Shown piece by piece: positions 6,657 to 61,740 of a stretch of 64,000 bases of DNA. The position numbers and the translations under genes were made by a program. Source of the stretch: Eledone cirrhosa (taxonomy: Eukaryota); contig OZ024740.1 of assembly GCA_964016885.1 (NCBI GenBank), positions 380,804,001-380,868,000 on the forward strand, written 5' to 3'. Position 1 is the stretch's first letter. Each line of letters begins with the position of its first letter. The notes under the pieces are model-generated. The model ran no database searches, was not told the origin of the DNA, and saw only the letters and a program-made list of their open reading frames with translations.

Positions 6657-7170
6657 GTTGTTATACTTGGGGAGGGTCATATTTGTGTAATATTGCCAGA
6701 ATTAATAACAGAACACACTCACTGTTTGGTTGGTTTTCGCTTCTCGCTGTCTTTTATATCGGTAATATAACTTACTCGGTCCTCAATGTTGCTATTGACT
6801 GACCGACGGTCAAAAATAATACAGATACAATATAGACACAAACACATATATATAGTTTATCATAAATTTTTCGTTGCACATCTGCAACATCGTCACTGGT
6901 GTTATATTTTCCTCCTGTTGTGTTGTATGTCTACGCCATTTTTATTCAGTCTGTCTATATATTTATTTATTTATTTGCTTGTTTGTTTATTTTATTTTGT
7001 CTTCTCTGCGCATGCGTTTGCATGTGTGTATAGTGTTATGTTTGCTGTGTGATGGGTGACTAGTGTGTGTTTATGTGCTTGTTGTTATTGTGCTTGTGTA
7101 TGTATTTATTTACATTTATTTCGACACACGATTTCATATAAAAAACCTCGCAAAACTAATTCATCGCCGC
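6657..7170. mobile_element. Non-coding fragment of the 57.8-61.7 kb PLE family: inverted 3' UTR/pLTR plus sense 3' tail
   Basis: 6657-~7113 is the reverse complement of ~61180-61660; 7114-7170 matches tail 61663-61718 in direct orientation; inserted in (TA)n. Confidence 0.9.
6861..6898 (-). ncRNA. Hammerhead motif with C3-to-G core mutation
   Basis: GUGACGA U GUUGCA-GAUG-UGCAAC GAAA AAUU UA; homologue at 61414 has CUGACGA. Confidence 0.55.
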
Positions 7171-9864
7171 TATATATATATGCATATAATTATTAGCGTA
7201 TATATATATATATATATATATATATGCATACACACACACACACACACACACACACACACACACACACACACACACACATATATATATATATATATATATA
7301 TATATATATATATATATGCATATATATTTATATATTCGCACACGTCGAGTGAGCGAGAGCGGATACATACATAAATTGATAGATATTTTTCTTTATAAGA
7401 GATATAGATAGATAGATAGATAGATAGATAGATAGATAGATAGATAGATAGACAGATTATTAAATACATATATACTGATACAGATACAGAAGAGAGGGAG
7501 GTTATAGTTATATGAATCTATCTTTGTTCTTTCCTTTCTTCCGTTACCTTTGGTGTTTTTCTTGACAATGAAGATAAGATAATGACAAAAGTACAACGCC
7601 CAAACTATCTTGCTCGCATGTATGTATGTTTGTGTTTACGTCTGTTTGCCTGTATAAATGTATGTCATTTGATACAAAGGTCAACGTTTTTGCGATGGTA
7701 TTCTCAACAACCCTCTGTCACAATCACGTCGTTTGCAAAACCTGTTCTTCGTCGAGTCGATTCAAGTGTTTTCATATCTCACACGTGTTAGGCTAGCAAT
7801 CAGACGTCATGGTAATTATATAGTTAGCTACTTCATTAGCAAAAATCTCCTATATTTGGGAATGAAGCTTTATAACCTAAATTATATTTCTCCATATTCT
7901 GATTACAATAATGTAGGTATATGAACTCATAACTCCTGGTGGAGTCGTAGGGGCGCCCTCATGATGCATTGCATGTCTTGAGCTCTTTAAACCTAGCCGT
8001 GTTAATTAATACAGCAGAGTTTACCAATTAAAAAGAGAATGTGAGAGAGGAAAGAGAGCTAGAGAAAGAATCAACCCCAGTCCTGAACTGGTACTTTTTT
8101 TTCTCCATATCGGAAGGTTAAAAGGCAAAGATTAATCACAGTGGGATTTGAACTCAAGGAAGCTCATAGAGCCGGAAATAGTACCGCAAAACATTTTATA
8201 CGGAATTCTAACAGTTTTGTCAACTAGCATCCTATGAGCTCACTTATAACAATTGGAAAATAAATTCACTATCAAAGCTCTACATTGACCATTTTCTTTT
8301 CTAAATACCCCCAACAATGAATAAAATATTGATATATAACTATTTCAGAGCAGAATCATCAAACTGTTTCATTCTGACTCTCCATCTCAGAAAATATCAC
8401 TTACACAGCGAAAATAATATATTTCATTTCCATAAACCGAGGTCTGTCAGAAATCTAATGTTTCTTATTTTCAGGTTAACCCTGTTCCAGCAGACTAATC
8501 ATCAAAGACGATCCAGCCAGGATGATCTCATCTTTTTCTTTTTATATCAGGTACTACATTTACATTATTCAAAGCTGGTCTTTTTATTTAAGAAACCAGG
8601 TTATAGTTTGAAGTAGACTTGGTTACTATATATAGCAGTCGGTGATTGCTTAGAGGAACCCTCGTTGGCTCGTATCTAAAAGAGGCAAACTTGTTAACTC
8701 TCCCCAACCGATGGGGAGATCTCCCACCCACTTTGGGTTGGGTGAAAGATGTCTTCTCTTGTGAAAATGGGTATAGATTTCATTATGTAAAATCTCCCAA
8801 TCTTGCCTCATTTCTCCCATCTTTTTTCATGGTACTCCCCATTTGGGTTTTTTGATGTCTGTAGAGGTATTATATATGTTTTATGCGTATCTAATTTACC
8901 ATAGATAGATGGGTTCAAACACTAATTATTGTAGTTCAGAGAGGGCGGCCTCAGACTGGTTTATTATTTCATGTCAATATCAAATCTTTCCATTATTTCT
9001 CCAATAAGGGGCGGCTAATTGTCAGAATCGTAAGAGCACCGAACAAAATGCCTTGTGGTATTTCTTTCGGCTCTTTATCTTCTAAGTTCAAATTCTGGTT
9101 TTAAATCTGGTTGGAGTGGGGATGATAAAATAGCGTAGAAGTGAAGTACTGCGGATTAACTAACTCTCTTCCCAAAATTCTAGGTCTGTGTCTACCTTAG
9201 AAATTTTTACTTTTCAAATGACACCCCCCACCCCACAAAAAGAGCATCACGTTGTTGTTTGTGCGACTAGAAAGGTGTTCAGCGATTTGAAATTGTATTA
9301 GCGTATAAGTCGCACAAAATTTCTGTCAGAAGTCACAATGAAACGCATGTCCTGTGATTCCCCTCAGCTGTTTGATTTACATATAGAACTGCTGCCGATA
9401 TGCAAATGGAATGATAGTAATCACATTATCTTTCTCGCAGAGCTGTCTTAAAAAAAAATCTTTTCTCCGTCTTCAATAACGACCCTCAACGTCATTCCAC
9501 TTGCCTGCAAAACTTCATCACCATCATTATAATAATCATCATCAACGCCGTCGTTGTGGGCGATATCGTACCCGTCATCCTCACCACCACCACCACCACC
9601 ACTACTACCATCATTATCATCATCATCATTCTCTCAATATCACTTCCCACGCTGTCTCTCCTGACCTTCAATTGTTTTAAGAAATTTCAAAGAATATTAC
9701 GGTGGTGATCTTTATAAAGCTAACTAGAACGTCTTAAATTTAGTTTTATTTTTTATATTTTTATGCAATGATTTCAATTATTTGTTTGGTAAACCAGACA
9801 ATGCCACATAAACCCACAATGATATTCCATTTCAATACACATTTCCCTAAGTAATACTGTTGAA

Positions 9865-10110
9865 CCACCGTCGCTTTCGACGACGAGTATTCCAGTTGTG
9901 TTAGAACAGTCTGCTCAAGAAAGTAACATGCAAGTAGCTGAGTATTTCACTGACATGTGTACTCTTAGCATAGTTCTCGTGGAGATGTGACACGTCTAGC
10001 CAATTGGACTACAGATACAACTCATTTTTTCGAGCTCAGTGGACTGGAGCAACGTGAAAGGAACTGCCTTGCACCTCAAGGACAAAATGCGCCGAACACC
10101 CTAACCACTT
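9865..10110 (-). mobile_element. tRNA-derived SINE family B (decayed)
   Basis: Reverse-complement similarity to 35633-35950 (GCTCCAGTCCACT...AAATGAGTTGTATCTGTA); further partial copies near 3150-3330 and 10170-10310. Confidence 0.6.
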
Positions 10111-11641
10111 AGACACACACCGTTACACATACATAGATTCAGACAAACAGAAAAGAAATAACGGCGTGTGGCATGTCTAGCCCTTTAGTTTACAGATACA
10201 ACTCATTTTGTTCTAGCTGAGTGAACTGGAGCAACAAGAAGTAAAGTCTTTTGATCAAGAACACGACGGGCTCCCAAGAATCGAACTCACCACCGTATGG
10301 TCATGAAGCGAAACCAAATAATAGATAAGCAAATAATATATTTGAAGTAGAATATATAAATCTTAATTTTATTCTATTATAAGTTGAGCCAAGTTATACA
10401 GCTTCATGTGCAAATGAGATTAATCACCTCATTTACACAGACGAGGAAATTATATATTCTCGCCTGTTTCAAGTTTAACAGTCGCATGAGTGGGAGGAAA
10501 TGCATCGACGACTGTGCCCCTTGCTTCTGCTGGACACCACTTGGGAGCGATAGCCTCTGTTTCTTTTACATAGCTACGGCTTTCTAAATGTTTATCTAGA
10601 AACGTACCGTATTTCTTTAGAAATACGAAATTCCAATACATATTTGTATACAGTTATGCTCGAAGCTAAATCCTAATTCTCTCACCCTCTCTCTCTCTCT
10701 CTCTCTCTCTCTCTCTCTCTCTCTCTCTCTCTCTATATATATATATATATATATATATATATATATATATAATTAAATTAAAATTTTATTGCTCGCCCTA
10801 GCACAGCACACAGCTGATACATAAATGTAAGTATACACACGTACACATATATGTATATATACACATATATATATATATATATATATATATACATACGCAC
10901 ACATATATACATATGTACGTATGGGTTATATATATATATATATATATATATATATATATACATATACTTTGTCTCTCAATTTTTCTCCCACTATGTCTCT
11001 TTCAATGTCATCATTATCGCCGCAATATATCAAGTTTCGGTTCGTAACATAGAGTTAGTGATTTTTGTTTTGTTATTTTGTAAGATGGTTTTAAATGAAA
11101 GAAAACAGAGATGAGAGTAAAGGACTCCTGTTGGGTTTTGGTATTTTATTTTACTGTTTCTTCGGGTGGGCGGTTCCATTTGCTATTTTGCCTTTCCGTT
11201 TTTTTTTTTCATTGTTTTTTTATTTGTCTTGTTTTTCAGTTTTAGAGAGAATCTGTGACAGACGGCCTTGCAGTGTTCAGTCACTCCATGTGACTTCCTC
11301 CCCCTCCTCCTCATCATTGTTATCATCATCATCGCCATCCTCCTCCTCCTCCTTATCATCATCATCATCATCACCATCGTGGTTGTCGTAGTCGTACTTC
11401 TCCTCCACCATATCTTCTGCTGCTCCTCTTTCTTCTCCTCCTCCTCCTCCTCCTCATAGTCGATCCTCTATTCATCCTTCTATGGCCCATCAGTAACATT
11501 ACCCAAGATAAGCACAAGTAGAGAAAGAGAATGAAGGAGAGAAAGAGAGATAAACAGAACCTACAGGCATATAGAAAGAAGGAGAAAGAGAAAGAGACAA
11601 ACATGCAGACAGACAGACATTCACAGAGAAGGTTGCGTTGA

Positions 11642-61143: not shown

Positions 61144-61413
61144 ATAAGTAAATAAAATAAAATAAAATAAGATAAATAAATACATACACAAGCACAATAA
61201 CAACAAGCACATAAACACACACTAGTCACCCAGCAGACACAACACTATACACACTAGTCACACAGCAAACATAACACTATACACACACGCAAACGCATGC
61301 GCAAAGAAGACAAAATAAAATAAACAAACAAGCAAATAAATAAATAAATATATAAACAGACTGAATAAAAAATGGCGTAGACATACAACACAACAGGAGG
61401 AAAAATATAACAC

Positions 61414-61451
61414 CACTGACGATGTTGCAGATGTGCAACGAAAGATTTATG
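61414..61451 (+). ncRNA. Hammerhead motif in PLE 3' UTR
   Basis: CA CUGACGA U GUUGCA-GAUG-UGCAAC GAAA GAUU UA UG: core and stem II good, stem I weak. Confidence 0.65.
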
Positions 61452-61740
61452 TAAATTATGTAAACTATATATGTGTTTGTGTCTATATTGTATCTGTATT
61501 ATTTTTGACCGTCGGTCAGTCAATGGCAACATTGAGGACCGAGTAAGTTAGATCGCAGATATAAAAGACAGCGAGAAGCGAAAACCAACCAAACAGTGAG
61601 TGTGTTCTGTTATTAATTCTGGCAATATTACACAAATATGACCCTCCCCAAGTATAACAATATTTGTTTCGACACACGATTTCATATAAAAAACCTCGCT
61701 AAACTAATTCATCGCCGCTATATATATATATATATATATA

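What the first reader, a model, noticed from the sequence alone, without database searches (positions are those of the whole stretch)
6657..61718. Fixed two-piece integration geometry: tailed copy plus inverted copy starting at a conserved site
Seen in three related insertions (6657-7170, 11891-15551, 57791-61718): a plus-strand piece ends in a ~56-nt tail at (TA)n, and a minus-strand piece begins at GACCCTCCC(A/C)AAGTATAACAA(TA) and lacks the tail. Which piece is long varies. At 57.8 kb the tailed piece holds the ORF, at 11.9 kb the tail-less piece holds the ORF, and at 6.7 kb the tailed piece is little more than the tail. The same asymmetry recurs at 29107, 31613, 36087, 36564, 56637 and 61741. 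Established: PLEs show inverted or partial-tandem pLTRs with a 3' tail. Inference: two independent priming events on opposite target strands, from two defined 3' positions of the RNA.
Basis: partly seen in the sequence, partly recalled or inferred. Interest (0 to 1): 0.75.

Follow-up and report, generated by a model that had tools for sequence, protein, structure and literature searches.

The report
Paired two-site priming in Penelope insertions
These are mirror-image insertions of Penelope-like jumping genes, a known shape, and in this genome they nearly always join one tailed end to one tail-less end, which likely means one enzyme complex copies one RNA from two fixed start points onto both cut DNA strands.

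Summary
The three insertions are head-to-head pieces of two related RT + GIY-YIG families (A, B; about 14,000 and 25,000 exact end-motif hits genome-wide) inside (TA)n. The motif is the ORF start (MTLPKYNNI). Both 3' ends are internal sites of a 4.15-kb tandem unit, 58-60 nt apart, each followed by TA/TAT.

End points are sharply fixed. In an unbiased sample, 80 of 84 two-piece insertions join one tailed and one tail-less end (50% expected if independent; P about 1e-19). The two arms nearly always share one subfamily haplotype, and either arm can be longer. Two priming sites are therefore supported, but 'independent' is not. One-piece insertions with either end also occur.

Two internal RT start sites bounding the tail were already shown in vitro (PMC11167929). 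The added value is the coupling, which favours one complex on one RNA. The scan has noted this pairing before in other genomes. Families C, D and F repeat it; sites 31613, 36564 and 56637 are less well supported.

The parts
6658..7113 (-). Family A tail-less arm (unit positions about 3578-4089); 3' end at 6658 against (TA)n
7114..7170 (+). Family A tailed arm that is essentially only the tail (starts at unit position 4091)
11642..11863 (.). 82-nt perfect mirror copy of non-repeat flank around (TA)29, abutting the family B insertion; not part of the element
11893..15148 (-). Family B tail-less arm, 5'-truncated (unit about 812-4091); RT ORF 12929-15289 and EN ORF 12307-12936 in different frames
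15151..15273 (+). Short rearranged B fragments at the head-to-head join
15245..15551 (+). Family B tailed arm: pLTR end with hammerhead-like core near 15293, ORF start codon at 15469, site 1 at 15491, 60-nt tail
29107..31570 (.). Family C head-to-head insertion: tailed minus arm (3' end 29107) with C-terminal GIY-YIG ORF 30372-30932 (long, Neptune-like linker); tail-less plus arm ending 31570
31615..32345 (.). Old inverted pair G with one extra ~55-nt end; asymmetry seen in the window copy only
36085..36537 (.). Family D palindromic insertion: tailed minus arm (84-nt tail), tail-less plus arm, hammerhead-like core near 36438 and 36276
36566..37080 (.). Inverted pair H with a one-sided extension; no other copy in the held loci, family status untested
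56638..56997 (.). Inverted pair E2 with hammerhead-like core near 56848; tail-less arm ends near 56638; tailed end not fixed
57793..57908 (-). Family A tail-less arm (116 nt); overlaps the plus arm by 4 nt at 57905-57908
57905..61718 (+). Family A tailed arm, 5'-truncated (unit 308-4147): RT + C-terminal GIY-YIG ORF to 61143 (YVND), hammerhead-like core near 61416, next unit's ATG at 61638, site 1 at 61660, 58-nt tail
61743..62262 (.). Family F inverted pair: tail-less minus arm at 61743, tailed plus arm, hammerhead-like core near 61950

Best explanation
These are insertions of Nematis-like Penelope elements into (TA)n, and each two-piece insertion is likely made in one coupled event: one protein complex, likely a dimer bound to one element RNA, would nick both target strands and prime reverse transcription at two fixed internal sites. 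The sites lie 23 and 81-83 nt after the ATG. Each nicked TA end likely pairs 2-3 nt with UA/UAU in the RNA. One active site would take the upstream (tail-less) site and the other the downstream (tailed) site, so one of each results. The trailing tailed cDNA would either stall within the tail or displace the leading cDNA. The two 5'-truncated cDNAs would then join by microhomology and be filled in. When only one primer is productive, a one-piece insertion would result. Shown: fixed ends, internal position, TA(T) after both sites, mixed pairing, shared haplotype. Inferred: nicking, dimer, one RNA, strand displacement.
For: Mixed pairing: 80 of 84 unbiased two-piece insertions are tailed + tail-less (expected 0.50; P 1.0e-19); 14 of 15 in loci chosen for a tailed end; 3 of 3 in the window. 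Held-out B range: 15 of 19 coordinate pairs are mixed; the 3 apparent tail-less pairs are separate insertions and the 1 tailed pair is a tandem read-through. Genome-wide, B has 12,330 tail-less ends against 11,168 copies reading on into the tail. Native tandem units (4147 and 4151 nt) continue past both sites with TAT/TAC, and the minor ends (AAC|TAT, AAG|TATA, AAC|TA) also sit on TA. Arms of one insertion differ at 50 of 1197 (A) and 68 of 808 (B) subfamily-diagnostic sites, against 43% and 46% between insertions. The tail-less arm reaches further 5' in 37 of 79 pairs and the tailed arm in 30, so the tail-less arm is not simply a fold-back copy of the tailed arm. 12 of 79 end within 15 nt of each other (permutation mean 3.8, P 1e-4; one of the 12, L084, is a parsing artefact). 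Tiny tailed partners (8-21 nt) occur next to 5 of 52 tail-less unpaired ends, and tiny tail-less partners next to 0 of 34 tailed ones. Anole Poseidon protein nicks and extends both strands and starts at two internal sites bounding the tail (PMC11167929).
Against: Four of 84 pairs break the rule (L083, L108, L244 tailed/tailed; L112 tail-less/tail-less). Two of the 80 had truncated tails and were counted as tailed (L096, L098). Two joins are A/B chimeras (L112, L116), and L098 and L197 have discordant arms (7 of 16 and 31 of 66 sites). One RNA cannot explain these unless they arose by later deletion between neighbours or from a mixed tandem. A shared haplotype is equally expected from two RNAs of one source locus, or from a hairpin intermediate. 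The excess of short tailed arms is weak: among resolved pairs, lengths up to 80 nt are 5 tailed against 5 tail-less. PMC11167929 reports initiation at sites not homologous to the cut DNA and no strand difference in start site. No biochemistry was done here.
Confidence: 0.6

Rival explanations
1. Hairpin plus trimming: one cDNA starts at the tailed site, folds back and copies itself, giving two tailed arms. The GIY-YIG endonuclease then cuts one arm at site 1 during resolution (the self-priming and EN-resolution ideas in PMC3846280 and PMC8557442).
For: Predicts strict one-of-each pairing and identical haplotypes. Symmetric joins fall on short palindromes (B position 3986; the family D centre). 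Site 1 is AT-rich like the target. cites earlier work in which D. virilis EN needed the tail for cleavage.
Against: In 37 of 79 pairs the tail-less arm is the longer, primed one, so the primed junction itself would have to be trimmed. Tail-less one-piece insertions flanked by (TA)n on both sides exist (13). Minor ends track TA dinucleotides at both sites. RT initiation at both sites was seen directly in vitro. Chimeric joins cannot come from fold-back.
Confidence: 0.17
2. Two RNAs, one asymmetric complex: a dimer holds two transcripts, usually from the same source locus, and forces each protomer onto a different site.
For: Needs no strand displacement for overlapping arms. Explains the A/B joins (L112, L116) and discordant arms (L098, L197). 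Arm lengths are only weakly correlated (rho 0.28).
Against: No evident reason for asymmetry on two identical RNAs. The only tail-less/tail-less case is a chimera, so the rule failed in 1 of the 2 cases where the arms clearly came from different families. Chimeras could be deletions between neighbours in one TA array.
Confidence: 0.18
3. One reading: two independent priming events, each free to use either site.
For: One-piece insertions use both sites at similar rates (13 and 11). The in vitro study saw no strand preference.
Against: 80 of 84 mixed pairs against 50% expected.
Confidence: 0.03
4. Assembly artefact or chance juxtaposition of separate insertions.
For: TA-rich, inverted sequence is hard to assemble. 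Insertions cluster in the same TA arrays.
Against: Arms diverge from each other with age, end at family-specific fixed sites, join without TA between them, and recur in several families.
Confidence: 0.02

Closest known systems
EN+ Penelope-like element insertion unit: inverted 5'-truncated copy plus one-sided tail (Pen2a_Av, PMC3846280; Naiad and other clades, PMC8557442)
   Same: Head-to-head inverted arms, tail at one end, pLTR running into the first codons of the ORF, partial tandems, Asn-rich insert, (TA)n targets.
   Different: Tails here are 58-60 nt (A, B) and 84 nt (D), against 30-40 nt. Those papers call the tail optional or often one-sided; here the pairing is counted (80 of 84). No target-site duplication can be read in pure (TA)n.
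Poseidon of Anolis carolinensis (PAc), in vitro (PMC11167929)
   Same: Two internal RT start sites in the ORF's 5' part bound the tail; both strands are nicked and extended; AT-rich target; dimer predicted.
   Different: Different clade. PAc starts were described as not homologous to the cut DNA, whereas both sites here are followed by TA/TAT matching the target. The text read does not address whether the two sites are used together in one event.
Nematis clade PLEs
   Same: C-terminal GIY-YIG with CX4CxxC linker and a short 7-residue spacer to the next Cys, as in Nematis rows (Neptune rows have a long spacer); an insertion after the KxHK motif.
   Different: DKS instead of DKG. No tree was built, so clade membership is not established.
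LINE-1 twin priming (recalled, not read)
   Same: Both target strands prime on the element RNA, giving a head-to-head inversion joined by microhomology.
   Different: In L1 the second site is scattered and the pieces do not overlap. Here the second site is fixed 58-60 nt from the first and the arms usually overlap.

Membership tests
EN+ Penelope-like elements | Single ORF with PLE-type RT and C-terminal GIY-YIG endonuclease | tested here: met
   RT motifs (LYPS, YVDD in B) and EN motifs (CxxC, YIGET, two His) in A and B. Pfam hits are weak: B RVT_1 E 1.9e-4 and GIY-YIG E 4.2e-4, both below cut-off; none for A; C GIY-YIG E 1.2e-7 above cut-off. 73 homologues.
EN+ Penelope-like elements | Tandem or partial-tandem units forming pLTRs | tested here: met
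   Native arrays with 4147-nt (A) and 4151-nt (B) units.
EN+ Penelope-like elements | Inverted 5'-truncated copy and one-sided tail | tested here: met
EN+ Penelope-like elements | Hammerhead ribozyme in the pLTR | tested here: inconclusive
   CUGANGA...GAAA cores in A, B, D, E and F by pattern; stem II folds in A and B but z-scores are not significant; no Rfam hit; cleavage untested.
EN+ Penelope-like elements | RT groups with PLE RTs in a phylogeny | not tested
   No named reference sequences were held for a tree.
Nematis clade | CX2-5CxxC linker finger with reduced spacer, plus CCHH motif in EN | tested here: met
   CTNRKCIIC and CIDKKCITC with a 7-residue spacer, compared by eye with Fig. 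S2 rows.
Nematis clade | Placement in the Nematis RT clade | not tested
   No tree built.
L1-type twin priming | Scattered internal second site and non-overlapping pieces (recalled) | tested here: not met
   Second site is fixed; only 4 of 79 resolved pairs have a tailed arm ending at or inside site 1.
Coupled two-site priming by one complex | Both strands primed in one event from one RNA | not testable with these tools
   Only genomic products were seen.

The most novel reading that the evidence does not exclude
Penelope-like elements integrate by programmed twin priming. A dimer on a single RNA places one RT at each of two fixed sites, pairs each nicked (TA)n end with 2-3 nt of RNA, and the trailing RT displaces the leading cDNA. 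The tail would then be the footprint of the spacing between two protomers, and inverted ends the normal product rather than an accident. Occasionally the complex would co-integrate cDNAs of two families only 71% alike.
Probability: 0.45. Interest if true: 0.65.

Novelty: new member of a known kind. Interest (0 to 1): 0.42.

Why it matters
How PLEs make their inverted ends and one-sided tail is still open: PMC11167929 leaves the later steps 'yet to be validated', and PMC8557442 and PMC3846280 favour EN resolution or self-priming. The near-obligate one-of-each pairing rules out independent site choice. It turns the question into a simple assay with the existing in vitro system. The architecture and the two start sites are already in print, so the advance is a constraint on mechanism, not a new element type.

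Tried and rejected
Complex prediction for two copies of the family A N-terminal 250 residues gave no answer (score 0.00, uncertain fold). The RNA run search listed no RNA holder. Contigs of four runs laid on 57800-58100 showed no piece spanning the join and so decide nothing. Rfam gave no match. Pfam gave no hit for the family A ORF. No stable fold was found around the two start sites (z -0.84 and 1.06). Target-site duplications could not be read in (TA)n. I first suspected the other palindromes were copies of flanking DNA; D, F and C are repeated families, and only 11642-11863 fits a flank copy. Simple fold-back of the tailed cDNA was rejected as a general route because the tail-less arm is longer in 37 of 79 pairs. 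A spike of tailed 5' ends exactly at site 1 was looked for; the numbers are too small to call. The automatic tailed/tail-less call failed for E2 and was noisy for F and J. Rows dropped before the count of 84: a duplicate row of L211, one duplicate row of the L126 tandem, and L022 (231 nt of flank between the arms). L108 and L109 are tandem duplicates and were both counted.
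Full report
1. Observation. The window is 35% GC and rich in (TA)n. It lies in a 3.0-Gb animal genome, likely an octopus (inferred: the best protein hit is a hypothetical Octopus vulgaris protein, 68% identical). The motif occurs three times on the minus strand, each followed by (TA)n, and twice on the plus strand, followed by a tail and then (TA)n. 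Read 5' to 3', the minus pieces end at the motif, so each insertion is head-to-head with both 3' ends outward. The 6.7-kb and 57.8-kb insertions are one family (A). The 11.9-kb insertion is a second family (B), 71% identical to A in the ORF.

2. Identity. A and B encode an RT with a C-terminal GIY-YIG domain. Pfam support is weak, but the motifs are typical. The CX4CxxC linker has a short spacer like the Nematis rows, not the Neptune rows, of Fig. S2 in PMC8557442 (by eye, no tree). Native tandem arrays give units of 4147 nt (A) and 4151 nt (B). In them the ORF starts at the motif: both read MTLPKYNNI. The conserved site is therefore the start of the coding region. The tail-less end lies 23 nt after the A of ATG, and the tailed end 81 nt (A) or 83 nt (B) after it. 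The unit continues in frame past both, so both are internal. Both window ORFs are 5'-truncated and damaged. Hammerhead-like cores lie in the pLTRs of A, B, D, E and F, without Rfam or folding support.

3. Are the ends fixed? Anchors upstream of both sites have 13,866 (A) and 24,809 (B) exact hits. I fetched loci around the first 100 listed hits of each family on contig C1; this sample is blind to end type. Of 120 A ends, 56 map to one tail-less position (68 in the tail-less range), 26 to the main tailed position and 19 to a second tailed position 13-15 nt upstream. Of 134 B ends, 60 map to one tail-less and 61 to one tailed position. Major and minor ends coincide with TA or TAT in the element, matching the target. 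Genome-wide, B has 12,330 tail-less junctions and 11,168 copies reading on into the tail.

4. Are the two ends independent? No. Of 84 two-piece insertions, 80 join one tailed and one tail-less end; 3 are tailed/tailed and 1 is tail-less/tail-less. The expected mixed fraction is 0.50 (P 1.0e-19). Two of the 80 have truncated tails. Three rows were dropped as duplicates or non-joins. In a held-out stretch (21.4-42.7 Mb, family B), 15 of 19 facing coordinate pairs were mixed. On fetching, the 3 tail-less pairs were separate insertions and the tailed pair was a tandem read-through. Family D gave 23 of 23 and family C 4 of 4 mixed pairs in the held loci; 20 D loci had been chosen for a full tailed arm, so the partner is the test. 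F gave 8 of 12 and J 4 of 5 by a crude call that was not curated. G and H were seen as pairs only in the window, and E2 was miscalled. The geometry is not obligatory: of 86 unpaired ends, 24 have (TA)n at the 5' boundary and are true one-piece insertions, 5 have a tiny tailed partner, and 57 are unresolved (some have partners in neighbouring loci or rearranged joins).

5. One template or two? Over 53 A and 47 B pairs (all sets), the arms of one insertion disagree at 4.2% and 8.4% of subfamily-diagnostic sites, against 43% and 46% between insertions. So both arms nearly always come from one source. The tail-less arm reaches further 5' in 37 of 79 pairs and the tailed arm in 30; 12 are level within 15 nt (permutation mean 3.8), often at palindromes. 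This excludes plain fold-back of the tailed cDNA as the general route. Against a strict one-RNA rule: L112 and L116 join an A arm directly to a B arm, and L098 has discordant arms. In L197 the tailed arm matches the upstream unit of a mixed tandem (98.3%) rather than the unit carrying the tail-less end (92% and 82%). These could be two-RNA events, later deletions between neighbours, or later tandem additions.

6. Mechanism. Best reading (0.6): one complex, likely a dimer on one RNA, nicks both strands of (TA)n and primes at both sites, one each. The cDNAs then join by microhomology (alignment overlaps of 1-5 nt in 22 of 66 simple joins). Fixed ends, pairing, shared haplotype and TA(T) at the sites are shown; nicking, dimer, single RNA and strand displacement are inferred. 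Rivals: two RNAs in an asymmetric complex (0.18), hairpin plus EN trimming (0.17), independent priming (0.03), artefact (0.02).

7. Literature. PMC11167929 (read: parts 1-2 of 4, covering abstract, main text and the start of methods; supplement text search empty, Fig. S2 not seen) shows two internal RT start sites bounding the tail, extension on both strands and a predicted dimer. PMC3846280 (passages) describes the inverted pLTR, the optional 31-bp tail extending into the ORF, and self-priming. PMC8557442 (passages and supplement rows) says the tail is often at one end only and ascribes it to EN resolution. PMC13282606 (passages) lists recently active Penelope-like families in O. vulgaris. 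bioRxiv 10.64898/2026.07.22.740005 (passages) has nothing on tails. L1 twin priming is recalled. Five searches (listings only for papers not named above) found no paper counting the pairing or proposing twin priming for PLEs. Subscription papers, including the original Penelope structure papers, and unseen supplementary figures may hold it. Earlier scan notes report the same pairing in other genomes; they are not support.

8. Verdict. A real feature: new families showing a known architecture. The coupling is a clean, testable constraint on an open mechanism. Interest 0.42.

Noticed in passing
window 11642-11863: Perfect 82-nt mirror copy of non-repeat flank around (TA)29, directly beside the B insertion. 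Only 3 of 2746 distinct TA arrays held show this (also L090, L133). Possibly snap-back synthesis at a nicked TA array during insertion, or an assembly fold-back.
   Followed up: partly
L112:2040-2200 and L116:4200-4340: Head-to-head joins of a family A arm directly to a family B arm, with 4 and 0 nt overlap and no TA between.
   Followed up: partly
L197: Mixed family B tandem whose inverted tailed arm matches the upstream unit, not the unit with the tail-less end.
   Followed up: partly
L121-L122 (G000:C1:14381300-14396500): Very young family A array of several units (the two compared are 99.9% identical), with a tail-less outer end and an inverted tailed arm.
   Followed up: partly
window 36350-36365; L141-L160: Family D inversion centres cluster at one short palindrome upstream of the hammerhead-like core; the query choice biases this count.
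   Followed up: partly
window 33469-34893: Another nested inverted family (J) with a one-sided ~100-nt extension, repeated in other loci.
   Followed up: partly
window 56010-56637: Nested inverted pieces of a further repeated family (E1) with its own short one-sided end.
   Followed up: partly
window 4154-4300: Hammerhead-like core on the minus strand between TA arrays; no other copy in the held loci.
   Followed up: no
window 2332-3099, 24460-25223, 41416-42352: Three copies of an unrelated repeat with internal tandem subunits, each starting CTAGCA right after (TA)n.
   Followed up: no
L126; L108-L109: Whole two-piece insertions amplified as local tandem duplicates; the L108 and L109 copies share a join but differ in the right end (tailed versus tail-less).
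   Followed up: partly
L140: Tailed/tailed insertion in which both ends carry the same imperfect TA flank, suggesting DNA-level mirroring that included the flank.
   Followed up: no
protein P0069: An O. vulgaris dynein-regulatory-complex-like protein model contains a stretch 74% identical to part of the family A ORF; likely an exonised or mis-annotated copy.
   Followed up: no
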